A stretch of DNA of 47,641 bases from a bacterium. Its GTDB lineage: Bacteria > DUMJ01. The stretch is from positions 1 to 47,641 of the forward strand of contig JAOACC010000066.1 in the NCBI GenBank assembly GCA_026418035.1. The letters are read 5' to 3'. The position numbers and the translations under genes were made by a program. The notes under the pieces are model-generated. The model was not told the origin of the DNA. It worked only from the letters and a program-made list of their open reading frames with translations, and did not search any database. Shown piece by piece: positions 5,987 to 42,470 of this stretch; the first letter of the stretch is position 1, and every line of letters begins with the position of its first letter.

Positions 5987-7096
5987 TTATCCTTCTAGAT
6001 ACTCCTTAAGCTTCTTTGCTCTACTTGGATGTCTCAGTTTTCTAAGAGCTTTAGCCTCTATCTGCCTTATCCTCTCTCTAGTTACATTGAACATCTTTCC
6101 AACTTCTTCTAATGTGTGGGGTCTTTCCCCCCCTAAACCAAATCTAAGTATTAGTATCTCCCTTTCCCTTGGAGAAAGACCTTCCAATATTTCCTGGATA
6201 TCTTCTGAAAGTAAATGCTGAGAAGCGGTATCAGCAGGGGCTACTGTGGTTGTATCCTCAATTAGGTCTCCCAATCTACTATCTTCCTCTTCTCCAACAG
6301 GAGTTTCCAGGGATATGGGTTCTTGAGCAGTTTTTATTATTTCCTCTATCTTTTCAGGAGGCATATCCATCCTTTCAGCAATCTCTTCTATGGTTGGTTC
6401 CCTTCCCAATTCTTGAAGAAGTTGACGAGAATGTTTAACTAACTTATTAATTGTCTCTATCATATGGACAGGTATACGAATAGTCCTAGCTTGGTCAGCT
6501 ATAGCCCTCGTTATCGCCTGTCTTATCCACCAGGTAGCATATGTACTAAATTTATAACCTTTCCTATAGTCAAACTTTTCTACTGCCCTCATCAAACCAA
6601 GATTTCCTTCCTGAATAAGATCTAGGAAAGAAAGCCCTCTACCTATATATTTTTTGGCTATGCTGACTACAAGTCTTAAATTAGAATTTATAAGTTTTTC
6701 CCTAGCTGATTGATCATTATTTTCCTTAAATTTTTTGGCAAGCTCCACTTCTTCTTCGGGAGTAAGTAGTGGAATCTTGCCTATCTCTCTAAGATAGAGT
6801 CTTACAGCATCATCTAGAGGTATAGCTTCCTCTACCTCCAGCTCCTCCTCTAACTTCTCAGCCTCTATAGGTAATTTCTTTAGTTCTTCATCCTCTTCTA
6901 TTTCTATACCAAGATTTAAGAGAAGTTTATAGAGATAATCTAAGTGGTCAATATCCAGTTCTTCTCCTGGAATAGCCTTTAGTATATCATCGTGGGTAAC
7001 AAATCCTTGATTCCTGCCCTTATCTACAAGATGTTCTATATTAGAATCAAACTCTTCACCTATAAATTCTTCTTTCTCCCTAATCTTCTCATCCAT
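5987..7096 (-). CDS. rpoD: RNA polymerase primary sigma factor
   Basis: 369 aa. Region 2 ([13 protein letters not shown]) and region 4.2 ([20 protein letters not shown]). Lies downstream of dnaG as in the classical operon. Confidence 0.95.
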
Positions 7097-11748: not shown

Positions 11749-11823
11749 TGGTGGGCGGTAGTGGAGTTGAACCACTGACCTCTTCGGTGTCAACGAAGCG
11801 TTCTTCCGCTGAACTAACCGCCC
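11749..11823 (-). tRNA. tRNA-Val (anticodon GAC), CCA encoded
   Basis: The reverse complement GGGCGGTTAGTTCAGCGGAAGAACGCTTCGTTGACACCGAAGAGGTCAGTGGTTCAACTCCACTACCGCCCACCA folds as a cloverleaf. Anticodon loop is TTGACAC. Confidence 0.9.
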
Positions 11824-11828
11824 ACTTA

Positions 11829-11905
11829 TGGAGGGGACGCCCGGATTCGAACCGAGGAATAGCAGATTTGCAATCTGCCGCCTTAATCCGCTTGGCTACG
11901 TCCCC
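11829..11905 (-). tRNA. tRNA-Cys (anticodon GCA), CCA encoded
   Basis: The reverse complement GGGGACGTAGCCAAGCGGATTAAGGCGGCAGATTGCAAATCTGCTATTCCTCGGTTCGAATCCGGGCGTCCCCTCCA has anticodon loop TTGCAAA and discriminator U, as expected for tRNA-Cys. Confidence 0.85.
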
Positions 11906-23301: not shown

Positions 23302-23390
23302 GCCGGAATGGCGGAATAGGTAGACGCTGCGGACTTAAAATCCGCTGAGCTTTTTAGCTCATGCCGGTTCGACCCCGGCTTCCGGCACCA
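23302..23390 (+). tRNA. tRNA-Leu (anticodon TAA), long variable arm, CCA encoded
   Basis: GCCGGAATGGCGGAATAGGTAGACGCTGCGGACTTAAAATCCGCTGAGCTTTTTAGCTCATGCCGGTTCGACCCCGGCTTCCGGCACCA. Anticodon loop is CTTAAAA. Confidence 0.9.
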
Positions 23391-24375
23391 AGTTATTATA
23401 AACCAGTCTAAGTCTGGGGTTATTTGTAATTCCTGGAATTCTTCCTCTCTTAGCTATCGGTCTGCCCTTTACTACTTTTAGGTCCAAAGTCATATCTATA
23501 GGAGAAGCTCCAGAGATATAGCTACCAACTCCAAATACATCTGCTCCAGCTTCAGAAAGAGCCCTTATTCTGGCAGGATTCAAACCACCAGAGACAAATA
23601 TCTTTACATAATCAAAACCCTCTTGATTAAGTCTAGATCTTACCTCTCTAACTAGCTCTGGAGTTACTCCTCCTCTTTCTCCAGGAGTATCAAGTCTTAT
23701 TCCATATAAAGACCTCCTAAATTCTCTTGCCACCCTTATAGCTTCTTCTGCCTCATCTTTAAATGTATCAACTAAAACAACCAAAGGAATATCTGGATGA
23801 GCCTTATGAAAGGCTCTAGCTGCTTCAACTGTATCACCAATAATTAATATCAATGCATGAGGCATAGTTCCAGATGGGATTATACCCACTAACTCTGCTC
23901 CAAGTATAGAACTTACCCCGTCAACTCCTCCTATTATGGCTGACCTATCCATTACAGAGGCTACTGCTGGATGTACATGTCTGGCACCAAAGGATAACAC
24001 TGGTTTCCCATTACTAGCCTCTTTACACTCTCTAGCTGCTGTCACCCACCCAGTCGAAGATGCCAAAATACCAAGTATAGCAGTTTCATATATACCAAAT
24101 TCTCCATAAGGGCCTTCAATACGCATTATAGTCTCTTTTTCTTCTATATACTCCCCCTCTTCGAGAGAATAAATTCTAACCCTTTTACCCTCTAAAAGAT
24201 TTAATACCTCTTTAACTCCACCTAGATATCCACTCTTCCTCGGAAAGATTTCTCCAACGACAGGAGTGTTAAGCGCACCTATAGAACTTAAAACCTTATA
24301 AGTTCTTTCAAAATATATATCTGCAGTCTTTCCACTTATAATCTCTTCCTCAGAAGCAGAAAATAACTTTTTCAT
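23359..24375 (-). CDS. Nicotinate phosphoribosyltransferase-family (type II PRTase) protein
   Basis: 338 aa. Family call by eye (TADIYF..., GTMPHALI, RLDTPGERGG). The last ~10 codons are antisense to tRNA-Leu. Confidence 0.7.
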   Translation of the reverse strand: MKKLFSASEEEIISGKTADIYFERTYKVLSSIGALNTPVVGEIFPRKSGYLGGVKEVLNLLEGKRVRIYSLEEGEYIEEKETIMRIEGPYGEFGIYETAILGILASSTGWVTAARECKEASNGKPVLSFGARHVHPAVASVMDRSAIIGGVDGVSSILGAELVGIIPSGTMPHALILIIGDTVEAARAFHKAHPDIPLVVLVDTFKDEAEEAIRVAREFRRSLYGIRLDTPGERGGVTPELVREVRSRLNQEGFDYVKIFVSGGLNPARIRALSEAGADVFGVGSYISGASPIDMTLDLKVVKGRPIAKRGRIPGITNNPRLRLVYNNLVPEAGVEPA

Positions 24376-26249: not shown

Positions 26250-26867
26250 CTATAAGGAAATATTTGCTCCTACTTGGAATATGATTCCTTCATGGTAAGT
26301 CGCTGTAATATTTAAAAATGATAATAGATTTATATTGAGGGCTATACCAGCCTTCTCAGATTTATAAAAGCCTAACAAATCTATACTATCAGTAAGCTTG
26401 AATTCCAAAGCTCCAAATATACCCTCGTAGATTCCACTCCCTACACCTATATGACCTTTCAAATTACCCAGCGCCTTAGAAAGCGCAACATAGAAAGATG
26501 TCCCCCCTATAGCATTATTAACATCAAAAAGCCCACCTATAGATATACTAGGTAAGAGAGGCTTTTCCTCTATGACATTCCATTTTGCATGGAATATAGG
26601 TATAAAATCTGAAGATGAAGAAAGAGAAAATCCAGTAGCCCCTATCTCTATGCCAACACCAAGGCCTAACGTTATTGGAATTCTTGTCAAGGTATCACTT
26701 CCATAAAAGCCAACGTTAGGACCTATCGCGACACCAAAATTCAACACATATGCCGTTGGTATCTCTGATATACCGGTTGGTCCCCAATTAGACAAAGTAC
26801 TAGCATTTGCAAAACCATAGAAAGACATCAAAAATACAATCGTAACTAAAAATACCTTTATCCTCAT
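26250..26867 (-). CDS. Secreted Gly/Ser-rich beta-strand protein, possibly an outer-membrane beta-barrel (YjbH-like N-terminal motif)
   Basis: Start reassigned to the ATG at 26867, which has GGAGG 7 nt upstream and an ATGA overlap with the maturase stop. Signal peptide MRIKVFLVTIVFLMSFYGFANA, then alternating hydrophobic pattern. Confidence 0.55.
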   Translation of the reverse strand: MRIKVFLVTIVFLMSFYGFANASTLSNWGPTGISEIPTAYVLNFGVAIGPNVGFYGSDTLTRIPITLGLGVGIEIGATGFSLSSSSDFIPIFHAKWNVIEEKPLLPSISIGGLFDVNNAIGGTSFYVALSKALGNLKGHIGVGSGIYEGIFGALEFKLTDSIDLLGFYKSEKAGIALNINLLSFLNITATYHEGIIFQVGANISL

Positions 26868-28162
26868 ACCTTTACCTCCATTCTTTTTGCCCTTAGCCAT
26901 AGGGCATATTCTATCCTTAATTTTTGTATCTCACAGCCAATCTCATATGGCTCTGTAATATTCCTATTCATATTGAAATTATTAGCTAGACATCCTCCTC
27001 CACAGAGATACCTAGTCCAGCAATCCTTACATAAAGGTTTACTGTCTATATTATTTAAGATTTTAAATCTATCTTTTAATTCTTTATTAAGGTTTTTCTC
27101 ATAAATATTGCCCATCATAAATTGTCTATATCCAACAAACTGATGGCAGGGATATATTTCTCCAGTGGGGGTTACCGCCATATACTCTATTCCGGCACCA
27201 CAACCTCGAGTCAGTCTTGGCAAACAAGCTCCCTCTTCTAAAGGTAATTCAAAGTGAAAGAATTTTACATCGCTTTTTAAACATTCCTCAGCTATCTTTT
27301 TATATTCTTCTCTCAAGATAGGGATATGCTCTCTCTTTATTGAGAGATTCTCGTCAGTTGTCACTACAGGTTCAAGGGATATGTATCTAAAACCTAAATC
27401 GATTAAATCTTTAAATGTCTCAGAGAAGGTTATTGTCTTTGCAGTATACGTACCTCTTATATAATATCCACCATACTCTCTCCTCCTAGCTAATTCTATA
27501 GCATTAGGAAGTATGTATTTAAAAGAGTCATTACCATTAATTAAATGTCTATGAATATTATGGACCTTATCTCCTCCATCAAGGCTCAAAACTACACTTA
27601 TTTCCAGTTCATCTAGGAGGTTTAAAACCTTCTCTGTTAGTAAAATACCATTAGTGGTAAGTGTTATTCTCAGATTCTTATTATATTCAACTGCTCTCTT
27701 TTTTCCATATATACTTACATCTCTAACAGCATCTAAATTTAATAAAGGTTCTCCACCAAAGAAGTCTATCTCTATGTTTTTTGTATCTTTAGAAGCTTCA
27801 ATTAAAAAATCTATCGCCCTATATGCCGTTTCCAAATCCATCATAGATCTACTAGAGCTGAGGTTATGACTTACAAAGCAATAATCACAAACCATATTAC
27901 AAGAATGGGAAACATTTAGGCAGAGAGACTTTAAAGTTAAATCATCATAAACTTGAATATTAAAAGAGTCATATGGAGTTAATACTTCTTCTATCTCTTC
28001 ATAAACATCTTCAGGGATGCAAGGGTCTTTACTCCCCTTAAGAAGGGATTCAACAGCCTTAGCCCCCTCTTCATCTAGCTGATAGAGGGAACCAAGACTG
28101 TTAAACAAAAAATATTCACCCTCGACAGAGAAAATATGCCAATCTCTCTTTACCAAGTCCAT
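26864..28162 (-). CDS. Radical SAM/SPASM peptide maturase, SCIFF-maturase type (thioether-forming)
   Basis: 432 aa. CxxxCxxC motif (CNMVCDYC) and a C-terminal SPASM Cys cluster (CKDCWTRYLCGGGC). Lies immediately downstream of, and overlaps, a SCIFF-like peptide gene. Confidence 0.85.
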   Translation of the reverse strand: MDLVKRDWHIFSVEGEYFLFNSLGSLYQLDEEGAKAVESLLKGSKDPCIPEDVYEEIEEVLTPYDSFNIQVYDDLTLKSLCLNVSHSCNMVCDYCFVSHNLSSSRSMMDLETAYRAIDFLIEASKDTKNIEIDFFGGEPLLNLDAVRDVSIYGKKRAVEYNKNLRITLTTNGILLTEKVLNLLDELEISVVLSLDGGDKVHNIHRHLINGNDSFKYILPNAIELARRREYGGYYIRGTYTAKTITFSETFKDLIDLGFRYISLEPVVTTDENLSIKREHIPILREEYKKIAEECLKSDVKFFHFELPLEEGACLPRLTRGCGAGIEYMAVTPTGEIYPCHQFVGYRQFMMGNIYEKNLNKELKDRFKILNNIDSKPLCKDCWTRYLCGGGCLANNFNMNRNITEPYEIGCEIQKLRIEYALWLRAKRMEVKV

Positions 28163-28317
28163 TTCCCCAATGGCTTCTTTACCTCGCAGACTAAATTCCC
28201 AACCGTCATACTAGTCTTACAGGCAGACCTACAAGGGGTCTGACATTCCTGACAATTCTTCTTTGCCTCTTTTTTATCTATAGAAGATTCTACTATTGCC
28301 TTAATATGTCTTCCCAT
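28150..28317 (-). CDS. SCIFF-type ranthipeptide precursor, 55 aa, not in the ORF track
   Basis: MGRHIKAIVESSIDKKEAKKNCQECQTPCRSACKTSMTVGNLVCEVKKPLGKWTW. GGAGG (28325-28329) lies 7 nt upstream of the ATG at 28317. The stop at 28150-28152 lies inside the first codons of the maturase. The core matches the SCIFF consensus CxECQTSCQSACKTSCTVxN. Confidence 0.8.
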   Translation of the reverse strand: MGRHIKAIVESSIDKKEAKKNCQECQTPCRSACKTSMTVGNLVCEVKKPLGKWTW

Positions 28318-28435: not shown

Positions 28436-28885
28436 ATGCAAGTTACCACATTTACAGGAGAGGGTGCTACTTATAGATTCTATCAGGGTTTTGATGCTAT
28501 TACTGGAGTTTATGCACACGAAGCATTAAATATCAGAGTATTCAAGAGATATGCATTAAACGCTAATAAAGAAATTGTAAACAGCGAAATAAAAATCAAG
28601 CTCGCCATAGATCCAAAGACAAAAAGGTTAATTGTCGTTGGAGGCGAATCTAGGGCAGAGTTTAAAAATAAAAATTACACAAAGATTACAGAACTATTAT
28701 CTGATGATACCGAAGAGATAAAGAAAGAAATTAGAAAATTACTAGAAGAAGAAAGGCTATTAAAAACTGTAGAAAAGTATGATAATCCCTTTATAGGCGA
28801 AAGATTAGAAGAGATAAGGAGGAAAATAAATATCCTAAAGATAGAAGCCTTAACGAAGGGTGTTATGGTAGATCTTTTTGCCTAG
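28436..28885 (+). CDS. Hypothetical protein with no recognisable family
   Basis: 149 aa. GGAGG 7 nt upstream and candidate promoter TTCACT-17-TAATAT at 28390-28418. The C-terminal half is charged and coiled-coil-like. Confidence 0.55.
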   Translation: MQVTTFTGEGATYRFYQGFDAITGVYAHEALNIRVFKRYALNANKEIVNSEIKIKLAIDPKTKRLIVVGGESRAEFKNKNYTKITELLSDDTEEIKKEIRKLLEEERLLKTVEKYDNPFIGERLEEIRRKINILKIEALTKGVMVDLFA

Positions 28886-31415
28886 CTGTTACAAGTTTAT
28901 TCCATTCTTCTTCAGAAATAGGCCTATCAAAACTTCTTAATTGACTTACCTTAAACCCGTGTTTTTTTGCTAATTCTCTAAAGTAGTTAATTCCTTCTAT
29001 TGTAAGGTCACTTCCTAGACTCATATCTGTATAATTTTTCTCTAACGCTAACATCATCGTCTCTGCCATACAGGCATAGGCTAATCCTCTCTCAAATCCA
29101 AAGTACCAACCCAAAGAGGGTTTACCAGGTATCTCTACGACTCCGCCATCGATTACTAAAACATCTGGCCTTAGCTCCTTTATTAAGGGGCTCACATTTG
29201 GCGGCCTAGATATATCGCATATAATAGCTCCAAATTTAATATAACTAGGTTCTATTAACTCTCTAGGACTATTAGTAGCGGTAACAATTATATCAGAAGA
29301 AGATACAGCTGATAAAAGATTTGTAGTAATTGTTATATAACCTTCTTTTTCAAGTAGACTTAATATTTTCTCCCAACTATCCGTATCATCGTAAGAAGGT
29401 AGAATAAGAGTTGATAGATACTCACCGATAGTTTTATTACTTGGTCTCCATCCAGATTCTAGACGTCTAGCGATATTTAGACACAGATCTATCCCAACCT
29501 TTCTCAACCTTCTAACACTAGACTTAGGATGAGAAGGATTTCCAACTAAGATTATTTTATGAATATCTTCGGATAAAAGTATCGCTAAAGCCCGCCCTAT
29601 AGACCCAGTTGCCCCTACAACACTAACAGTACTCTGACTTAGATCAATTTCTAATTTCGCCGAAGCTAGTTTTAAGGCATCTATGCTAGCAACTACAGTA
29701 TAGCTATTACCCGTAGTTAGAGGAACATACTTACCTTTAAGCAACGTCCCACCCCTAGTAATAACAGATGTATAAGCACCTAATCCAAGGATTTTTGCTC
29801 CTCTATCGACGGCAAGAGAAACGGCGGATTCAATTACCTTAATCACTTTATCCTGAGGAGTCTCTATCATCTGTCTTGCAGTATATGGAATATTAATAAA
29901 CTCACCATAAGCTGTAGCTCCATAGTCCGAATTTATTCTAACTTTCCCTATAACAAAAGGTTTTATTAAGTCTTTTCCGATCTCAGAGAAGACAGCTATC
30001 TTATCTCTAGGAAGCATTATAAGAGTTGGATCAAATTCAGAATAATTAGCGAGATCAATAGGGTGAACCAAAAAAGCAAATCGACCATCTTCTAAAGAAG
30101 GAGAAACATCTTCCCTAGGTTCTTTCTCGATAACATCTATGTTATAGAGAGAGAAATCTCCTTTACTTATATTAAGAATCGGACGTATAATTTCTGGGGT
30201 ATTCATTTCATCTAAAATATTAAAAACATCCTCAAGGGATTCAACAACTTTTTGGCATTCATCCCAGGTAGTTATAAAGGAAGGTTCTAACCTTATAACT
30301 TTATTATTCTTTAACGTGGGGGCTAATCTTATTTTCTTCTCGTTTAATAGATAACTAACAACTATTGGGACTAGATTCTCCTGCTCTGAGAGAACACTCA
30401 ATATGCTTTGAGGATAGTTTTTTCTATCCATATCTAACTCTATACCTAATAGATATCCTTTACCTCTAATATCTTTTATAAGAGTGGGGAATTTATCTTT
30501 TAGCCTTAATAACTCTCCAATTAATCTCTCCCCATTTTCTCTTATTCTCTTTATCAAACTCCTATCATCCCTAATTAAAATCTCTAAAACTTTATCAGCT
30601 ATTAAACATGCTATATTATTTCCTGCAAAAGTAGAGAAATTATTCAAGTCAAAGCCTTCCGGATAAAACTCTTCCCTAATTAGGCAGACTCCTATAGGAT
30701 ATATTCCTCCACCTAGTACTTTGCCAATAAGTAATATGTCTGGAATAAAGTCTTTTCCTTCACACAAGAAGAGAGACCCAGTTCTACCTAAGCCAGTTTG
30801 GATTTCGTCTAGGATAAACAAAATATTGTGTTTATGGCATAGCAATCTAACTTTAGACAGATAATCATCTGGGGGCAAAATTATACCACCTTCACCTTGA
30901 ATAGGCTCTACCATCAAGTCACCATAATGCTTAGCATTTTCTTCTAACTCTTCCTCCAGGGCTGTTATATCCCCATAAGGTATATATGTAAATCTTTCAT
31001 TCTGTATACCATGATAGCCACCCTTAGCGACTATCATTCTTTCCTTACCAGTCAATAGGGAAACTATCTTTGTAGCTATTTCAACTGCTTCTGTGCCAGA
31101 ATTGGCAAATACTACATACTTGAATCCTTCAGGAGCTAACTCAATTAGTCTTTCTGATACCTTCTCTTGATACTTAGATACAGAAGCTTGAACAATAGTA
31201 GGGATAGATTCCTTCTTTATCCTTTCCAAAACATCCCATATTTCAGGATAATTAAACCCAAATGGCAAAGCTCCAAAAGAGGATATAAAATCCAAATATT
31301 GGATACCACTTTCATCATAAAGATAGTTTCCTTCGCCTTTTACAAATACCTTGTCCAACCTTATAACTTCAAGCATCTTATTTAAATAAGGGTTAATATA
31401 CTTAGAGTTACTCAA
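28863..31415 (-). CDS. Fusion protein: class-III PLP aminotransferase (N-terminal) and acyl-ACP-reductase-like NAD(P)H thioester reductase (C-terminal)
   Basis: 850 aa with a TTG start. N-terminal domain has SGTEAVE, DEIQTGLGRTG and PLP-Lys GKVLGGG (K232). From about residue 445 it is collinear with cyanobacterial AAR: FAFLVHP, LGLGAYTSV, TTGNSYTV, VVGATGSIGRAL and catalytic-Cys context AYACMAETMMLALE (C782). Confidence 0.75.
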   Translation of the reverse strand: MSNSKYINPYLNKMLEVIRLDKVFVKGEGNYLYDESGIQYLDFISSFGALPFGFNYPEIWDVLERIKKESIPTIVQASVSKYQEKVSERLIELAPEGFKYVVFANSGTEAVEIATKIVSLLTGKERMIVAKGGYHGIQNERFTYIPYGDITALEEELEENAKHYGDLMVEPIQGEGGIILPPDDYLSKVRLLCHKHNILFILDEIQTGLGRTGSLFLCEGKDFIPDILLIGKVLGGGIYPIGVCLIREEFYPEGFDLNNFSTFAGNNIACLIADKVLEILIRDDRSLIKRIRENGERLIGELLRLKDKFPTLIKDIRGKGYLLGIELDMDRKNYPQSILSVLSEQENLVPIVVSYLLNEKKIRLAPTLKNNKVIRLEPSFITTWDECQKVVESLEDVFNILDEMNTPEIIRPILNISKGDFSLYNIDVIEKEPREDVSPSLEDGRFAFLVHPIDLANYSEFDPTLIMLPRDKIAVFSEIGKDLIKPFVIGKVRINSDYGATAYGEFINIPYTARQMIETPQDKVIKVIESAVSLAVDRGAKILGLGAYTSVITRGGTLLKGKYVPLTTGNSYTVVASIDALKLASAKLEIDLSQSTVSVVGATGSIGRALAILLSEDIHKIILVGNPSHPKSSVRRLRKVGIDLCLNIARRLESGWRPSNKTIGEYLSTLILPSYDDTDSWEKILSLLEKEGYITITTNLLSAVSSSDIIVTATNSPRELIEPSYIKFGAIICDISRPPNVSPLIKELRPDVLVIDGGVVEIPGKPSLGWYFGFERGLAYACMAETMMLALEKNYTDMSLGSDLTIEGINYFRELAKKHGFKVSQLRSFDRPISEEEWNKLVTARQKDLP

Positions 31416-31487
31416 CTATAGCCTTCCTCCTATAAAACTTATTCTCATTTATTCTATCAAAAATAAAATCCCAATACAAACCCTGAT

Positions 31488-32399
31488 GTGTTATGGTATA
31501 ATGAATTACAAATGAAAGTCAGTGTGGTTATTCCTACTAGAAATAGAGCAAAGATAGTTTCTAAGTGTATAGAACATATCTTAAATCAGGACTATCATCA
31601 GTATGAGGTAATAGTAATAGATGATGGAAGTGAAGATAACACCTTAGAAAGCCTAAAAGGGTTTTCAAGTTATAAAAACCTTAAGTTTATCCCATTATCT
31701 GAAAGAAAAGGTCCAGCTTTCTGCAGAAATCTCGGGGTAAAGGAGAGCCAAGGAGAGCTGATAATCTTTATAGACAGCGATATATTTGTTCTTCCTAATT
31801 TTATAAACAGTCATGTAAAGGTTCATAAAAGTCACCCCGAAGGGGTTGTAGCAGTTGGACCAGTTATAGCCATATCTGAAATAGACAAAAAATTAGTTAG
31901 TAAGGGTTCTATATTAGATTTCTCTAACGCCTATTTTGCATCAGGTAATGCCTCTATACCTAGAGAAATATTCATGAAAATTGGTGGATTTGACGAGATA
32001 TTCAATGTCTATGGCTGGGAAGATATAGATTTTGGATTGAAACTTAAGAAATTTGGGATAAATTCTATTAAAGTTCCAGATGCGATAGGATACCACTATC
32101 AGCCATTACCAAATGAGAATAACCTAAAGGCTCTTATAGAAAAAGAAAAAGAAAGGGCTAAAAGTGCAGTTTACCTTTATAAAAAATATCCAACCTTTGA
32201 AGTTAGACTTATGATTCAGAATACCTTATTTCATAGAATCTTAAATCAGCTACTTACTGGTCTCGGATATATAGATGAAAAGAGATTAGTTAAAATCTTG
32301 AATTCTAATAAAAGCTTCAATTACAAAAGATTTTTTCTAACTGTCTTCCTTACCAAAATATATTTAAAAGCTTTAAAGGAGGAGATAAAAAATCTGTAA
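31488..32399 (+). CDS. Family-2 glycosyltransferase
   Basis: VVIPTRNR, IDDGSED and FIDSD (DxD) motifs. The more likely start is the ATG at 31512 (MKVSVVIPTRN) rather than the GTG at 31488. Confidence 0.8.
   Translation: MLWYNELQMKVSVVIPTRNRAKIVSKCIEHILNQDYHQYEVIVIDDGSEDNTLESLKGFSSYKNLKFIPLSERKGPAFCRNLGVKESQGELIIFIDSDIFVLPNFINSHVKVHKSHPEGVVAVGPVIAISEIDKKLVSKGSILDFSNAYFASGNASIPREIFMKIGGFDEIFNVYGWEDIDFGLKLKKFGINSIKVPDAIGYHYQPLPNENNLKALIEKEKERAKSAVYLYKKYPTFEVRLMIQNTLFHRILNQLLTGLGYIDEKRLVKILNSNKSFNYKRFFLTVFLTKIYLKALKEEIKNL
31494..31502 (+). promoter_or_regulatory. Extended -10 element (TGGTATAAT) immediately upstream of the GT2 ATG
   Basis: TG at 31494-31495 and TATAAT at 31497-31502, leaving only 9 nt before the ATG at 31512. 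Confidence 0.35.
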
Positions 32400-39324: not shown

Positions 39325-41079
39325 TCACTTATGAAACATCTCTCTTATCTCTTGCCATGACTTACCACTTCTAGCTGCCTCTGCTATCAATGGCGCATTT
39401 ATTGCTTTTCCACCATATATGCCAAATTTAAAACTTTCGCAAAACTCTTGATTTACCGCTCCCCCACCACAAGCAAACGGGATATTTATTCCTTCTTCCT
39501 CTAGCCTCTTTGCTATTCTAGGAAAAGCAGACATAGTAGTAGTCATAAGGGCGCTTCCCGTAAGTAGACAAGGCTTATACTTCTTAACCGCCTCTACAAC
39601 TCTTTCTATAGGAACATCTACCCCAAGGTCTATAACTTCATAACCATGGGCTACCAATAATGCTTTAACTATATCTTTTCCTATTGTATGAATATCCCCT
39701 TCTGCAACATGCATAACAATCTTTCCTTTTTTCTCTATAGGTTTTCCCATATATTCTTCACACATCTTTATTCCTATCTGCATAGCATCCGCTGAAAGAA
39801 TAACCTGGGGAAGAAAATACTCTCCTTTATTCCAAAGTTCACTAACAACATTAATACCCTCTACCAATCCCTTATTTATAATCTCTATAGGATCATAAGT
39901 CTCTAAAGCCTTTTTTATTGCGTCTATGACCTTTTGAGTGTTTCCATTTATTACCGCTTCTCTCACTTCCTCTAAAACATCTTTAACAAGTCTTTCCTTA
40001 ACCTTCTCCTCTCCCTTGGATAAATCATATCTAACAAAGATCTGAAAATTACTTTTTCTTTTGTTAGGAATAGTATAAGATGGCTTGGACAAAGAAATCA
40101 TCTGTAATGCCTTAATATTTTCTATAGATGTCTCCAGAGCAAGACTACAACCTGGAGCTAAGAGATCTATACCACTTTCTAAAGCCTTATTTCCTGCCTT
40201 TACTATCTCATTGGCTGTACCTTGCAGTAATAGCCTTACCGGATCAAGATTACCAATTAGAGAGACCTTATCCTTTACTTGGGTTGCAGTAGAAAGGTCT
40301 AATTTGTGGTCTATACTTAGTGCATCCGCTCCACTGTCCGCCATATATTGAATTATAGGAGTTACGTTACCACATATATGTAAAACAGTAACAGCAGATT
40401 TTAATTCTTCGAAAAGCCTCTTATGATATGGTAGAATTAAATCTTTATATATCTTAGGGCTTATCATCTCTGTGCTTGCACTCATATCTTCTACGCATAT
40501 AATATCCGCTCCAGCATTAATTAGCGCCTTGCCATAGATTATTCCTAACTCTAGTGTTATATCAAGAAATCTCTTTAAAGATTGTGTTTCAGAAATAGAG
40601 GCAACTAAAATTTCATTTAATCCCAAAAGATATCCAGCCAAACTAAAAGGTCCTACAATGCCGGCTATAACAGGATATTCTTTCCCAATTTCTCTTGATA
40701 GCTTTTCTACTGCGGATATCACTATAGGAATTCTTCCTTTAGACAGAATATCACTTGGTAATGTAGGTAGAGAGTCTATCTTAAATGGATGGGTTTCCAC
40801 AGTGGGAAGACTATCATATGAGAATCTTATCTTACATCCAAGTGCTTCTGCTTCCACAGTCTGACAAAAGGGGACTCTTACATTATCAAAACCAAGCATT
40901 TCTATAGCAGAAAAAGCAAGTTTGGCCATTTTTTCTGGGCTGGTATGTGCATCTAAAAGACTAATATTAAGCTCTTTCAACTGTTCTTTTGTAATAGTCT
41001 GATTTACACATACTATAGGAACCCTGTCTAGTCTCTTAGAACCTAAAATTGCTGATAAAACCCTCTTCTTGGGAGTCAT
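39325..41079 (-). CDS. Fusion of an MtaA/URO-D-family methyltransferase domain and a corrinoid-binding (MtaC-like) domain, CmuA-like architecture
   Basis: 584 aa. N-terminal half has zinc motifs VLHICGN (HxC) and LAPGCSL. C-terminal half has a B12-binding cap plus a Rossmann domain with DIHTIG (DxHxxG), SALMTTT and CGGGAV. Confidence 0.8.
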   Translation of the reverse strand: MTPKKRVLSAILGSKRLDRVPIVCVNQTITKEQLKELNISLLDAHTSPEKMAKLAFSAIEMLGFDNVRVPFCQTVEAEALGCKIRFSYDSLPTVETHPFKIDSLPTLPSDILSKGRIPIVISAVEKLSREIGKEYPVIAGIVGPFSLAGYLLGLNEILVASISETQSLKRFLDITLELGIIYGKALINAGADIICVEDMSASTEMISPKIYKDLILPYHKRLFEELKSAVTVLHICGNVTPIIQYMADSGADALSIDHKLDLSTATQVKDKVSLIGNLDPVRLLLQGTANEIVKAGNKALESGIDLLAPGCSLALETSIENIKALQMISLSKPSYTIPNKRKSNFQIFVRYDLSKGEEKVKERLVKDVLEEVREAVINGNTQKVIDAIKKALETYDPIEIINKGLVEGINVVSELWNKGEYFLPQVILSADAMQIGIKMCEEYMGKPIEKKGKIVMHVAEGDIHTIGKDIVKALLVAHGYEVIDLGVDVPIERVVEAVKKYKPCLLTGSALMTTTMSAFPRIAKRLEEEGINIPFACGGGAVNQEFCESFKFGIYGGKAINAPLIAEAARSGKSWQEIREMFHK

Positions 41080-42470
41080 TATCTTCCCTCCAAACCATAA
41101 GAGTCTAGACGAAAATTAGAAATTAAGTTCTTATATTTTTTTATACAATCTATAAGAAAATTTTCTTCTGATTCAGGCAAATTGTCTATAACCTTTCCAC
41201 ATTCAGAGAAAACTTCCTTCTCCTTTTGAGATATCAACAAGATATTCTCTTTTATAGATTTTTCTAACTCCTCATAAGCCCTTCTAAGAGCAAAAAGAGC
41301 TCTCTCATAATAATTATTACCCTTTACAAGGCTTGAACCTATATTATAGGCAATCCGAGGAGAAATTACATAAGCTTGAGGGTCTCGAAGTTCATCTGAC
41401 TCAATAAATATATCTCTTAAGATTTTCTCATATCCTAGCTTTAAAGCTGAATTCATTTGCGATACATCATACCCCAAAATCTCAGTAAAAACTGCAGGGG
41501 TAGTTCCTCCAAACATTTCTCCATATTGAACAGCCTCATTACTCCATAAATCACATACAGCAGCAGAGATATTTCCCATAAGGTCTGAGTGTGCACAAGC
41601 ACAACTCTTTCCTTCCATAGAGATAGGGCATCCTGTAATTGCTTTTATAATAGGACCTTCATAGCCACAGTCTTTATCAGGACCTTTTGCTCCAACATCA
41701 AATGCCACTAAAGACCTAGCAGAACCTATTGCCCTTATTAGGGCAGAAAATATGTGAGATAATTCATTACTGGTAAACCCTCCAGCTAAAAACATGGCAG
41801 AATTCGAATGGGCGCAATCTGTATCCCCCCCAGGTATGATATTATATTCCTTAGCTATCATTACTATATCCTTCCAAAGATATTCCATATCAAGAGAACC
41901 TAAAATACCTATAGCAAATAGGCATCCAATTAAATCTTGTCTTGTTACTGCATAGTTAAAAACTTCTTTCCCCCCTGTAGATTCGATAGAGAGAATATCT
42001 GCCCCTGATTCTGCAGATAACCTAAAACTTTCTATCATCTTATCATATTCTCTTGAACCTCTGTAACCATTCTCTGGCTTTCTGATATCTGCTACAGTGA
42101 CTCGAAGAGCGCTTTTAAGACCAAATTTATCATAGTACTCTTTTAACAACCACTTAGTCATATGAGTTATCTCTTTTCCCCAAGTTGGATTATCGGTAAG
42201 CTGAAATACATGCTCAAGCTCCAATACAATCGAAGGAAGTCCTATCTGAATACATCGATCTAAAATATCCTTTGTCATCCTTTCATATTCATGATAGATC
42301 GTATCGAAACTTCTCTCTGTTCCCGGACGAGGATGATATTTAATTTCAGGATGCACCATTCCTCCCCCTATTTCTAAATCAAACCCACATTTTACTGGAT
42401 ATATAGCTTTACCAAAAGTCATCTCCTCCCAAGAGGAGTAAGCCATACTTTTATACATTTTCTTATCCAC
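41079..42470 (-). CDS. mtaB: Methanol:corrinoid methyltransferase MtaB homologue
   Basis: 463 aa, collinear by eye with Methanosarcina MtaB (SMAY...EMTFG, YPVK.G.DLEIG). Contexts of the zinc ligands are conserved: SIESTGGKEVF, DTDCAHSN, GPDKDCGYEG. GTG start. Confidence 0.8.
   Translation of the reverse strand: MDKKMYKSMAYSSWEEMTFGKAIYPVKCGFDLEIGGGMVHPEIKYHPRPGTERSFDTIYHEYERMTKDILDRCIQIGLPSIVLELEHVFQLTDNPTWGKEITHMTKWLLKEYYDKFGLKSALRVTVADIRKPENGYRGSREYDKMIESFRLSAESGADILSIESTGGKEVFNYAVTRQDLIGCLFAIGILGSLDMEYLWKDIVMIAKEYNIIPGGDTDCAHSNSAMFLAGGFTSNELSHIFSALIRAIGSARSLVAFDVGAKGPDKDCGYEGPIIKAITGCPISMEGKSCACAHSDLMGNISAAVCDLWSNEAVQYGEMFGGTTPAVFTEILGYDVSQMNSALKLGYEKILRDIFIESDELRDPQAYVISPRIAYNIGSSLVKGNNYYERALFALRRAYEELEKSIKENILLISQKEKEVFSECGKVIDNLPESEENFLIDCIKKYKNLISNFRLDSYGLEGR

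What the first reader, a model, noticed from the sequence alone, without database searches (positions are those of the whole stretch)
28863..31415. 850-aa fusion of a class-III aminotransferase with an acyl-ACP-reductase-like domain: predicted single-polypeptide thioester to aldehyde to primary amine synthase
Seen directly:
- Residues ~1-400 carry the class-III PLP aminotransferase motifs SGTEAVE, DEIQTGLGRTG and the Lys in LLIGKVLGGG.
- Residues ~445-850 are collinear with cyanobacterial acyl-ACP reductase (AAR, the aldehyde-forming enzyme of alkane biosynthesis). Shared features are FAFLVHP at the domain start, GLGAYTSV, TTGNSYTV, the nucleotide loop VVGATGSIGRAL and the catalytic-Cys context AYACMAETMMLALE (AAR: FACFAEAMLLEFE).
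- There is a ~50-residue insertion after the Rossmann loop.

Inference:
- An aldehyde-releasing thioester reductase covalently linked to an omega-type transaminase would channel a reactive aldehyde into a primary amine.
- This is the logic of reductase-plus-transaminase steps in alkaloid and polyketide pathways, here possibly acting on fatty acyl-ACP or acyl-CoA to give long-chain amines or amino-lipid precursors.
- A GT2 glycosyltransferase is transcribed divergently next door, so the two could act on the same lipid.
- I do not know of a characterised member with this architecture.
Basis: partly seen in the sequence, partly recalled or inferred. Interest (0 to 1): 0.75.

Follow-up and report, generated by a model that had tools for sequence, protein, structure and literature searches.

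The report
Known-type thioester-to-amine fusion enzyme
This gene encodes a real two-domain enzyme that very probably turns an activated acid (a thioester) into an aldehyde and then a primary amine, but enzymes of exactly this design (TamH, PigE and a 45%-identical Thermaerobacter protein) are already published, so it is a new member of a known kind whose natural substrate is still unknown.

Summary
An 850-aa ORF on the minus strand (28863..31415, TTG start) joins an intact class-III PLP transaminase (TA, residues 1-405) to an acyl-ACP-reductase-like thioester reductase (TR, residues 444-850). Every quoted motif is present, the catalytic Cys782 aligns, and there is a ~50-residue helical insert.

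The fusion is not an assembly artefact: more than 100 full-length homologues come from independent assemblies.

The proposed chemistry (thioester to aldehyde to primary amine) is well supported by homology. The claim that no characterised member exists is wrong:
- PtTamH has the same domain order and makes C12 amine from C12-ACP (2022).
- PigE has the permuted order (2021).
- Four "TAm-AAR fusions" were described in 2024. One, from Thermaerobacter subterraneus, is 45% identical to this protein over its full length.

Relatives fused to FAAL-ACP, KS-ACP or aryl-CoA-ligase-like domains show the TA-TR pair is a widespread reductive-amination cassette.

The GT2 neighbour is conserved only among close relatives, and no carrier protein, ligase or gene cluster lies in the 47-kb window. 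Substrate and physiological role remain unknown.

One unexplained feature: this subclade lacks 19 residues after the YHG motif of the TA domain.

Verdict: new member of a known kind; modest interest.

The parts
28863..31415 (-). Whole gene: 850-aa TA-TR bifunctional enzyme (TTG start at 31415, TAA stop at 28863-28865)
   Evidence: ORF and translation. An identical 850-aa protein, P0001, is in NCBI as 'aminotransferase class III-fold PLP-dependent enzyme [bacterium]'.
31425..31430 (-). Ribosome-binding site GGAGGA, 9 nt upstream of the TTG start
   Evidence: Sequence read directly.
30201..31415 (-). Class-III PLP transaminase domain (residues 1-405)
   Evidence: Pfam Aminotran_3, 2.6e-71. Best PDB match is the PigE TA domain (1.1e-55), then putrescine aminotransferase YgjG. 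Foldseek of the AF2 model gives PigE, YgjG and CrmG. PLP-site residues are invariant in 19 homologues: D203, Q206, K232, T262, R375.
30720..30722 (-). Codon of Lys232, the PLP Schiff-base lysine (LLIGKVLGGG)
31005..31010 (-). Site of a subclade-specific 19-residue deletion just after Y134-H135-G136. All other family members, PigE and YgjG carry 'KTLGALSATGxxxYQxPFGAPxxGF' here.
   Evidence: Alignment A1 columns. Gaps in the PigE alignment. The Pfam match is split into two stretches.
30087..30200 (-). Inter-domain linker (residues 406-443): variable sequence, low model confidence
   Evidence: pLDDT 56-74 for residues 420-440. No consensus across these alignment columns.
28866..30086 (-). AAR-like thioester reductase domain (residues 444-850)
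   Evidence: NCBIfam: PigE model 1.8e-48, TIGR04058 1.2e-24. PDB sequence search: PigE N-terminal domain 8.6e-29, AAR 6.7e-17. Domain-only AF2 model has pLDDT 88.6 and pTM 0.88. Foldseek top hits are AAR 6JZY/6JZU, E=7e-22, TM 0.75.
29595..29615 (-). Nucleotide-binding loop G601-A-T-G-S-I-G607
   Evidence: Aligned to AAR 'gatgdig'. Invariant in the family. Coordinates.
29340..29540 (-). ~65-residue helical insert after Rossmann strand beta-2 (residues 626-692). Absent from AAR and PigE; present in TamH and in many relatives.
   Evidence: Length comparison. Collinear with TamH. Helices 630-653, 663-668 and 678-691 at high pLDDT. The one-stretch versus two-stretch pattern among hits fits its presence or absence.
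29070..29072 (-). Codon of Cys782, the predicted acyl-accepting catalytic cysteine (AYACMAET)
   Evidence: Aligned with the AAR Cys ('facfaea'; C294 per PMC9594044) and the PigE 'gcmaet' Cys. Invariant in homologues. Corresponds to Cys815 of TsFusion.
31488..32399 (+). Divergent GT2 glycosyltransferase: a neighbour, probably not a functional partner
   Evidence: Pfam Glycos_transf_2, 7.2e-31. Adjacency is kept only in L001 and L002, not in L089 or more distant loci.

Best explanation
The gene encodes a TamH/PigE-type bifunctional enzyme, called a 'TAm-AAR fusion' in the literature.

Inferred mechanism, by homology:
1. The C-terminal AAR-like domain takes an acyl group from a phosphopantetheine thioester (acyl-ACP or acyl-CoA) onto Cys782.
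2. It reduces the acyl-enzyme with NAD(P)H bound at G601-G607, releasing an aldehyde.
3. The N-terminal class-III transaminase, with PLP on Lys232 and probably dimeric, transfers an amino group from an amino-acid donor (L-Glu or L-Ala type) to that aldehyde. The product is a primary amine.

Shown here: domain identities, intact catalytic residues, fold, family distribution and fusion partners of relatives.

Inferred only: the activities themselves, the direction of flux, the cofactor and the substrate. The substrate is delivered in trans, because no carrier protein or ligase is encoded nearby.
For: Domain identities and fold:
- Pfam and NCBIfam assign both domains.
- PDB sequence searches put PigE first for BOTH domains, and AAR next for the TR half, with the catalytic Cys and the GxGxxG loop aligned.
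- AF2 models are confident: full length pLDDT 87.3, pTM 0.82; TR alone pLDDT 88.6, pTM 0.88.
- Foldseek gives AAR as the top hit for the TR model (E=7e-22). The next family is the carmabin TAD, and then nothing better than 1e-7.

Relation to characterised enzymes:
- Collinear BLASTP match to PtTamH: 27% identity over 683 aa, E=4e-63, including the insert. PtTamH converts C12-ACP to dodecanal and then dodecylamine with NADH and L-Glu (PMC9594044).
- PigE reduces a thioester and transaminates the aldehyde (PMC8341465).

Conservation: all catalytic residues are invariant across 19 homologues down to 45% identity.

Fusion partners of relatives (42-47% identity in the TR domain for the first two classes, 34% for the third):
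- FAAL-like ligase-ACP-TA-TR.
- TA-TR-ligase.
- KS-ACP-TA-TR.
These place the cassette directly downstream of carrier-bound or CoA thioesters.
Against: - Reductase activity has never been measured for this clade. Prout et al. did not determine it.
- PtTamH did not accept acyl-CoA and needed its own ACP partner. No ACP, ligase or biosynthetic cluster lies in this 47-kb window or beside any examined relative of the 44-85% identity clade.
- The protein scores below the curated cut-offs of both equivalog models: PigE 449 bits against 850, AAR 87 bits against 450.
- This subclade lacks 19 residues of the TA domain next to the PLP-stacking YHG motif. The effect on activity is unknown.
Confidence: 0.75

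Rival explanations
1. Same enzyme, opposite physiological direction. It would be a catabolic amine-to-acyl-CoA route in an anaerobe. The TA domain deaminates a primary amine (putrescine-like or alkylamine) to an aldehyde. The Cys/NAD(P)+ domain then oxidises the aldehyde to an acyl-CoA thioester, as CoA-acylating aldehyde dehydrogenases do, which would allow ATP gain.
For: After PigE, the TA domain's best matches are putrescine, ornithine and GABA aminotransferases, which are catabolic enzymes. The gene sits among housekeeping and energy-metabolism genes, not in a biosynthetic cluster. Some relatives sit next to an aldehyde dehydrogenase (L003), a flavin amine oxidase plus Glu dehydrogenase plus MFS transporter (L012), or acyl-CoA dehydrogenases (L088). 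Many relatives have a dedicated small HTH regulator upstream, which is typical of inducible genes.
Against: All characterised relatives (AAR, PigE, TamH) run in the reductive direction. Multidomain relatives place an acid-activating ligase and ACP upstream of TA-TR, which only makes sense for acid to amine. The neighbourhood hints are each seen in one locus only.
Confidence: 0.1
2. Only the transaminase is catalytically relevant. The AAR-like domain would do something other than aldehyde release: binding or regulation, or a redox-neutral transformation like that proposed for the carmabin terminal amidation domain (TAD).
For: TAD structures (9E56, 9E4U) are the second-best fold family for the TR model, E about 7e-17. 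TAD binds NAD next to an invariant Cys, yet its chemistry is unresolved. The reductase activity of the closest clade was not determined.
Against: Sequence searches find PigE and AAR but not TAD, which is absent from the PDB phmmer hits at E<=1. Identity to TAD is only 16-18%, against 20-22% to AAR in the fold alignments and stronger HMM scores to PigE. A fused transaminase is the obvious consumer of an aldehyde. The Cys and the nucleotide loop are invariant.
Confidence: 0.07
3. A GluTR/GSAM-like pair. The Cys-reductase domain would reduce an aminoacyl-tRNA (or another non-pantetheine ester), and the class-III domain would convert the amino-aldehyde, for example in an alternative 5-aminolevulinate-type or diamine route.
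For: Weak matches of the Rossmann part to glutamyl-tRNA reductase: TIGR01035 at 2.8e-4 and PDB 3OJ0 at 2.9e-3. The PigE authors noted the GluTR-GSAM analogy. The deleted TA segment corresponds, from my recollection of GSAM structures, to the gating-loop position.
Against: The GluTR matches cover only about 55 residues of the nucleotide-binding fold. No HemL/GSAM model appears among the best 25 NCBIfam hits for the TA domain. Relatives are fused to ACPs and ligases, not to tRNA-related domains.
Confidence: 0.03
4. The fusion is an assembly or frameshift artefact joining two separate genes.
For: None found. Read-level data are not available here.
Against: The ORF is continuous. The top 120 homologues are nearly all 815-900 aa with 97-100% coverage, from NCBI, JGI, ENA and Logan assemblies and from isolate genomes (Symbiobacterium thermophilum, Thermaerobacter, Sporotomaculum, Stigmatella). 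Of the 150 best representative clusters for the TR domain, 80 carry TA-TR in this order. The AF2 pTM of 0.82 is consistent with a packed two-domain protein.
Confidence: 0.01

Closest known systems
PtTamH (Pseudoalteromonas tunicata, tambjamine YP1 pathway; PMC9594044)
   Same: Same domain order (class-III TA at the N-terminus, AAR-like TR at the C-terminus). Collinear at 27% identity over 683 aa, E=4e-63. Shares the catalytic Cys, the GxGxxG loop, the PLP Lys and the long insert after the Rossmann loop.
   Different: TamH is 941 aa and lies in a pigment gene cluster next to its ANL-ACP partner TamA. It is NADH-specific, prefers C12, and carries an extra ~90-residue segment in the TA domain. 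The window protein is 850 aa, stands alone among housekeeping genes with no partner in 47 kb, and lacks 19 residues after the YHG motif.
TsFusion / TmFusion / TfFusion and PP_2782 (KecF homologue): 'natural TAm-AAR fusions' (Prout, Hailes and Ward 2024, PMC10829540)
   Same: TsFusion is from Thermaerobacter subterraneus and corresponds to hit P0099 (Cys815). It belongs to the same family as the window protein: 45% identity, 99% coverage, same architecture and same insert. The published structural comparison gave the same PigE and AAR assignments as found here.
   Different: Only transaminase activity was shown for these enzymes. Reductase activity was not determined. They come from thermophilic Bacillota and have a conserved 176-187-aa HTH gene upstream (L086), which the window lacks. 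They also retain the 19-residue TA segment. PP_2782/KecF sits in a PKS-like alkaloid cluster.
PigE (Serratia, prodigiosin MAP branch; PDB 4PPM; PMC8341465)
   Same: It is the best solved-structure match for both halves: TA domain 1.1e-55, TR domain 1.9e-13 plus 2.4e-11. It is a bifunctional thioester reductase and transaminase.
   Different: The domain order is permuted (TR at the N-terminus, TA at the C-terminus). It lacks the ~50-residue insert. The window protein scores 449 bits on the PigE NCBIfam model, against a cut-off of 850. PigE lies in the pig gene cluster.
Cyanobacterial acyl-ACP reductase AAR (PDB 6JZQ/6JZU/6JZY; TIGR04058)
   Same: Same fold for the C-terminal domain (Foldseek E=7e-22, TM 0.75). 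The Cys, GxGxxG, GxGxxTS and TTGN motifs align.
   Different: AAR is a stand-alone 340-aa protein that hands its aldehyde to the oxygenase ADO, not to a transaminase. It has no insert. The window protein scores 87 bits on TIGR04058, against a cut-off of 450.
Carmabin terminal amidation domain TAD (PDB 9E4S-9E56; bioRxiv 10.1101/2024.10.28.620694)
   Same: An AAR-like two-domain fold with NAD next to an invariant Cys. It is the second-best fold family for the TR model.
   Different: Only 16-18% identity, and not detected by sequence search. TAD sits at the C-terminus of NRPS modules and has no fused transaminase. Its proposed product is an amide, and its chemistry is unresolved.
Separate-enzyme versions of the same logic: TabE + TabA (Streptomyces BE-18591; bioRxiv 10.1101/2025.08.11.669332), and the coelimycin TR-aminotransferase pair as cited in PMC9594044
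   Same: Thioester to aldehyde to amine.
   Different: The reductases are unrelated (ALDH-type TabE; the coelimycin reductase is, from my recollection, an SDR-type TR). The two activities are on separate polypeptides.

Membership tests
TamH/PigE-type AAR-like thioester reductase + class-III transaminase bifunctional enzymes ('TAm-AAR fusions') | Class-III (fold-type I) PLP transaminase domain with the Schiff-base Lys and PLP-site residues | tested here: met
   Aminotran_3, 2.6e-71. K232, D203, Q206, T262 and R375 are invariant. PigE and YgjG are the top structural matches.
TamH/PigE-type AAR-like thioester reductase + class-III transaminase bifunctional enzymes ('TAm-AAR fusions') | AAR-fold domain with a nucleotide loop and an aligned catalytic cysteine | tested here: met
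   Cys782 and G601-G607 are invariant.
TamH/PigE-type AAR-like thioester reductase + class-III transaminase bifunctional enzymes ('TAm-AAR fusions') | Both domains on one polypeptide, conserved as a fusion (TamH order: TA at the N-terminus, TR at the C-terminus) | tested here: met
   Continuous ORF. About 120 full-length homologues. 80 of 150 representative clusters carry TA-TR. Collinear with TamH.
TamH/PigE-type AAR-like thioester reductase + class-III transaminase bifunctional enzymes ('TAm-AAR fusions') | NAD(P)H-dependent reduction of a carrier-bound thioester, followed by transamination of the aldehyde | not testable with these tools
   Needs enzyme assays. Shown for PtTamH and, in lysate, for PigE. 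For the 45%-identical TsFusion only the TA half was shown.
TamH/PigE-type AAR-like thioester reductase + class-III transaminase bifunctional enzymes ('TAm-AAR fusions') | Dedicated acyl-activating/carrier partner or biosynthetic gene cluster next to the gene (as in the tam, pig and kec clusters) | tested here: not met
   No ACP, AMP-binding, PKS or NRPS gene was found among the ORFs scanned with Pfam, which cover most of the 47.6-kb window. None was found within 7-8 kb on each side (about 3.5 kb upstream in L089) of nine relatives. This is a context feature, not a requirement for the enzyme type.
NCBIfam NF053554 'prodigiosin MAP biosynthesis aminotransferase PigE' (equivalog) | Score at or above the curated cut-off (850 bits), with TR-N/TA-C order | tested here: not met
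   449 bits. The match is split into three stretches, with the query TA domain hitting model positions 384-734 and the TR domain hitting the model's N-terminal part. The order is therefore permuted.
TIGR04058 long-chain acyl-ACP reductase (cyanobacterial AAR, equivalog) | Score at or above the cut-off (449.7 bits); a stand-alone ~340-aa protein partnered with aldehyde-deformylating oxygenase | tested here: not met
   87.3 bits. The domain is fused to a transaminase and carries a ~50-residue insert. No ferritin-like ADO gene was seen among the annotated neighbours.
Carmabin-type terminal amidation domain (TAD) | C-terminal domain of an NRPS module; recognisable sequence similarity to CarI TAD | tested here: not met
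   Fold similarity only (E about 7e-17, 16-18% identity). Absent from the sequence hits. No NRPS context.
Glutamyl-tRNA reductase / GSA aminomutase pair | HemA-type catalytic domain and a HemL-type class-III domain | tested here: not met
   Only about 55 residues of the Rossmann fold match hemA (2.8e-4). HemL is not among the best 25 NCBIfam hits.

The most novel reading that the evidence does not exclude
In this uncultivated, deep-branching anaerobe the TA-TR enzyme may not be a pigment or alkaloid tailoring enzyme. It could be a solitary, primary-metabolism-type gene that takes acyl groups directly from the housekeeping ACP or CoA pool. It would make free primary amines for an undescribed amine-bearing lipid or metabolite, or run in reverse to feed amines into acyl-CoA metabolism. 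The subclade-specific loss of the 19-residue loop next to the PLP site might then be an adaptation that opens the transaminase site to a different or bulkier substrate.
Probability: 0.2. Interest if true: 0.55.

Novelty: new member of a known kind. Interest (0 to 1): 0.28.

Why it matters
The enzyme type is useful. It converts an activated acid to an amine in one polypeptide, which is why TamH and the thermophilic fusions are being studied as biocatalysts. This survey shows the TA-TR pair is a large modular cassette: 2,884 representative clusters for the TR domain, often fused to FAAL-ACP, KS-ACP or aryl-CoA-ligase-like domains.

For this particular gene the value is incremental. It extends the family to an unclassified anaerobic lineage and to a compact variant with a deletion next to the PLP site. 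The open question is what the hundreds of stand-alone copies in anaerobic Bacillota and related lineages make, and from which thioester. That question is not made directly testable by this window alone.

Tried and rejected
- GT2 as a functional partner: rejected. Adjacency is kept only in relatives of 67% identity or more, and lost at 60% identity and beyond (and others).
- A biosynthetic cluster, ACP or ligase nearby: none among the ORFs scanned, which cover most of the 47.6-kb window. The region is core chromosome: primase, rpoD, enolase, pyruvate kinase, SUF, methanol methyltransferases and SCIFF.
- A riboswitch or other RNA clue: Rfam found only three tRNAs. The 72-bp upstream gap leaves no room for a leader. 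The promoter/terminator scan gave counts no different from shuffled sequence.
- A conserved partner across the family: the only recurrent neighbour is a 174-187-aa HTH protein upstream in 5 Bacillota loci. It is absent from the window and its close relatives.
- The genome-contig scan was swamped by generic class-III transaminases, because the EPIQGEGG pattern is too common. It gave only five loci with matches spanning both domains, plus stand-alone TR homologues.
- The listing of cluster members returned no names or taxa for the multidomain relatives.
- Foldseek with the full-length model returned only transaminase hits. A TR-only model was needed.
- Organism identification through RpoD: 80-97% identity only to unnamed MAGs, and 66% or less to a mix of Armatimonadota, Synergistota, Atribacterota and Bacillota. 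The phylum is unresolved.
- Cofactor preference (NADH or NADPH) could not be read from the sequence. The beta-2 end is 'LVGN', with no diagnostic acidic residue.
- An inter-domain tunnel could not be examined, because model coordinates are not exposed.

Full report
**1. Observation**

The ORF is real but lies on the minus strand: 31415 down to 28863, 850 codons plus TAA, with a TTG start. The plus-strand translation is full of stops. A GGAGGA ribosome-binding site sits 9 nt upstream of the TTG. Residues N8 and P9, which lie upstream of the first ATG (codon 14), are invariant in homologues and align to PigE. The TTG start is therefore correct. An identical 850-aa protein is deposited in NCBI from a MAG labelled only 'bacterium'.

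Domain assignments:
- The N-terminal half is Pfam Aminotran_3, E=2.6e-71.
- Pfam gives the C-terminal half only weak Rossmann hits.
- NCBIfam matches the C-terminal half to the PigE model (1.8e-48) and to the cyanobacterial acyl-ACP reductase model TIGR04058 (1.2e-24).
[quoted passage not shown] GLGAYTSV, TTGNSYTV, GATGSIG and the Cys of YACMAET align to their AAR and PigE counterparts.

The '~50-residue insertion' is real. The query has 76 residues where PigE has 29, and 87 where AAR has 35.

**2. Not an artefact**

The 120 best homologues are nearly all 815-900 aa and cover 97-100% of the query. They come from independent NCBI, JGI, ENA and Logan assemblies and from isolate genomes: Symbiobacterium thermophilum, Thermaerobacter subterraneus, Sporotomaculum syntrophicum, Stigmatella and Caldisalinibacter.

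Catalytic residues are invariant in a 19-sequence alignment that reaches down to 45% identity:
- TA domain: D203, Q206, K232, T262, R375.
- TR domain: G601-G607, C782, E785, T786.

**3. Structure**

The full-length AF2 model has pLDDT 87.3 and pTM 0.82. Only the linker (about residues 420-440) and one N-terminal loop are of low confidence. The insert (626-692) forms three confident helices.

Foldseek with the full model returns transaminases only: the PigE TA domain, YgjG and CrmG. A model of the TR domain alone (pLDDT 88.6, pTM 0.88) gives AAR structures as top hits (6JZY, 6JZU; E=7e-22, TM about 0.75). The carmabin 'terminal amidation domain' (TAD) follows at about 7e-17. Nothing else is better than 1e-7.

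**4. What is already known**

- PigE. Its N-terminal AAR-like domain is credited with reducing a thioester, and its C-terminal domain transaminates the product (PMC8341465). PigE is the best solved-structure match for both halves of the window protein, but with the opposite domain order.
- PtTamH. It has the same TA-N/TR-C order. Together with the ANL-ACP protein TamA it converts dodecanoate, via C12-ACP and dodecanal, to dodecylamine, using NADH and L-Glu. It does not accept C12-CoA (PMC9594044). Using the TamH sequence printed in that paper's supplement (machine-read, so with minor errors), BLASTP gives a collinear match of 27% identity over 683 residues, E=4e-63. The match runs through the insert.
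- Prout, Hailes and Ward 2024 (PMC10829540). They describe 'natural TAm-AAR fusions': PP_2782 of P. putida (a KecF homologue in an alkaloid cluster) and three thermophilic homologues. They mapped the AAR Cys to C815 in ThesuDRAFT_00745 of Thermaerobacter subterraneus. My hit P0099 is the 886-aa T. subterraneus protein with that Cys at position 815. It is 45% identical to the window protein at 99% coverage. [quoted passage not shown] The reductase activity 'was not determined'.

The architecture, the proposed chemistry and even this clade are therefore in the literature.

**5. Family survey**

The TR domain alone finds 2,884 representative clusters (50% identity level) at E<=1e-3, and 641 at E<=1e-30. 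The best 150 break down as follows:

| Architecture | Count |
|---|---|
| TA-TR, no large extension | 55 |
| N-terminal extension + TA-TR | 15 |
| TA-TR + C-terminal extension | 10 |
| TR only (some are certainly fragments) | 63 |
| N-terminal extension + TR only | 6 |
| TR at the N-terminus + C-terminal extension | 1 |

In total, 80 of 150 carry TA-TR in this order.

Pfam scans of twelve long representatives showed:
- AMP-binding(+DIP2-like)-PP-binding-TA-TR, that is FAAL-ACP-TA-TR: four full-length proteins and one fragment.
- TA-TR-AMP-binding(+C): three full-length proteins and one fragment.
- KS-...-TA-TR: two proteins, with a PP-binding (ACP) match detected in one (P0239).
- A-(AONS-like)-A-T-TA-TR: one protein.

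The ligase domain of one TA-TR-ligase protein best matches anthranilate-CoA and benzoate-CoA ligases (2.9e-85). The cassette is therefore not restricted to fatty acyl substrates.

These domain fusions are the strongest computational support for the thioester-to-amine direction. They also make it hard to infer the substrate of a stand-alone member.

**6. Context**

The window is ordinary core chromosome. It carries primase, rpoD, ThyX, enolase, pyruvate kinase, NadC-like, rhomboid, the SCIFF peptide with its radical-SAM maturase, transaldolase, two TldD/PmbA paralogues, prismane, MtaB with an MtaA-MtaC fusion, and SUF genes.

The TA-TR gene looks monocistronic. It is flanked by the divergent GT2 (72-bp gap) and by a convergent, conserved 149-aa ORF of unknown function that overlaps its 3' end by 23 nt.

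The GT2 adjacency persists in the 84%- and 67%-identical relatives (L001, L002). It is gone at 60% identity (L089) and in all relatives at 44-52% identity that were examined. I therefore give it no functional weight.

No ACP, ligase, PKS or NRPS gene lies near any of these loci.

The only recurrent neighbour is a 174-187-aa protein with an N-terminal HTH. It lies about 100 nt upstream on the same strand in five Bacillota loci, or about 970 nt upstream with a 307-aa gene between in Symbiobacterium. The five copies are 52-77% identical to each other. It is absent from the window.

Other neighbourhoods are idiosyncratic:
- aldehyde dehydrogenase (L003);
- P450 and FemAB-like (L005);
- flavin amine oxidase, DUF3419, Glu dehydrogenase and MFS transporter (L012);
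- UndP-translocase-like and DapB (L007).

**7. A feature specific to this subclade**

The window protein and its relatives at 60-84% identity (P0002, P0008, P0011, P0016) lack 19 residues immediately after the PLP-stacking Y134-H135-G136. Every other family member, PigE and YgjG have 'KTLGALSATGxxxYQxPFGAPxxGF' at this position. This is why the Pfam match is split into two stretches.

From my recollection of class-III structures (not tested here), this position corresponds to the loop that gates the active site in GSAM. The residue after HG (K or R) is a substrate-recognition residue in ornithine and GABA aminotransferases.

All PLP-site residues are retained and the clade is well conserved, so I expect an active but more open transaminase site. 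This remains unexplained.

**8. Mechanism and rivals**

Best explanation (0.75): a TamH/PigE-type enzyme. An acyl group moves from a pantetheine thioester to Cys782. NAD(P)H reduces it to an aldehyde. The PLP/PMP-dependent TA domain then aminates the aldehyde to a primary amine.
- Shown here: domains, residues, fold, family and fusion partners.
- Inferred: the activities, the direction, the cofactor and the substrate (delivered in trans).

Rivals:
- Reverse, catabolic operation, amine to acyl-CoA (0.10).
- A non-reductive or non-catalytic role for the AAR-like domain, TAD-like (0.07).
- GluTR/GSAM-like use of aminoacyl-tRNA (0.03).
- Assembly artefact (0.01 or less).

**9. Organism**

RpoD is 80-97% identical only to proteins of unnamed MAGs. 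It is 66% or less identical to named Armatimonadota, Synergistota, Atribacterota and Bacillota. The host is therefore an unclassified anaerobe. The gene content (SCIFF, methanol methyltransferases, rubrerythrin, prismane, HypD/E) fits a strict anaerobe. One close relative comes from a biogas fermenter.

**10. Verdict**

- This is a new member of a known kind: a TAm-AAR / TamH-type fusion.
- Interest is modest (about 0.3).
- The residual open points are the natural substrate and role of the stand-alone clade, and the 19-residue deletion.

Noticed in passing
window 30978-31028 (-), residues 130-146: The window protein and its relatives at 60-84% identity lack a 19-residue segment right after the YHG motif of the transaminase domain. 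All other family members, PigE and YgjG have it. The functional consequence is unknown.
   Followed up: partly
L043:7923-13922 (+), Nocardia sp. NPDC049737: A 1999-aa ORF fuses TA-TR to a PPDK_N (ATP-grasp-like) domain, a PEP-utilizers mobile domain and a thymidylate-kinase-like region. This hints at acid activation by phosphorylation rather than by an ANL ligase or ACP. Pfam calls only.
   Followed up: partly
P0125, P0126, P0131 (about 1400 aa); P0124, P0130, P0133, P0138 (about 1550 aa); P0239, P0242; P0146: Metagenomic relatives carry TA-TR fused to an anthranilate/benzoate-CoA-ligase-like domain, to FAAL-ACP, to KS-ACP, or to A-T-AONS-A-T. They look like single-polypeptide acid-to-amine machines. 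I did not find them described in the papers searched.
   Followed up: partly
L003:7368-7898, L004:6508-7032, L086:6339-6902, L088:6372-6902, L090:6368-6898: A conserved 174-187-aa protein lies about 100 nt upstream of the TA-TR gene on the same strand in four of five Bacillota loci. In Symbiobacterium (L004) it is about 970 nt upstream, with a 307-aa gene between. It has an N-terminal HTH and a C-terminal part with no Pfam match. It is a likely dedicated regulator and is absent from the window.
   Followed up: partly
window 28436-28885 (+): A 149-aa ORF with no Pfam match is convergent with the TA-TR gene and overlaps its 3' end by 23 nt. It is conserved at 73% identity, in the same position, in L001.
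   Followed up: partly
window 28150-28317 (-) and 26864-28162 (-): A SCIFF-type peptide (six Cys within about 45 residues; 55-aa ORF) sits directly upstream of its radical-SAM/SPASM maturase. The same pair occurs in L001 and L002.
   Followed up: no
window 39325-42470 (-): MtaB (methanol-cobalamin methyltransferase B) lies next to a 584-aa fusion of a URO-D-like (MtaA-type) methyltransferase with two B12-binding domains (MtaC-type). A prismane/hybrid-cluster protein follows. This suggests methanol-derived methyl metabolism in this unclassified bacterium.
   Followed up: no
window 5987-7096 (-), RpoD: The primary sigma factor is 66% or less identical to any named taxon, with a mix of Armatimonadota, Synergistota, Atribacterota and Bacillota as nearest. 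It is 80-97% identical only to unnamed MAG proteins. The host lineage is unclassified.
   Followed up: partly
L011, L014, L019-L026 (Desulfallas, Armatimonadota, Chloroflexota): These loci carry homologues of the TR domain (32-37% identity; query residues about 440-846 only). No transaminase part was matched. Their partners were not examined.
   Followed up: no
window 23302-23387 (+) versus ORF 23359-24375 (-): A tRNA on the plus strand overlaps the 3' end of the NadC-like (QRPTase) ORF on the minus strand by about 29 nt. Two further tRNAs lie at 11752-11905 (-).
   Followed up: no
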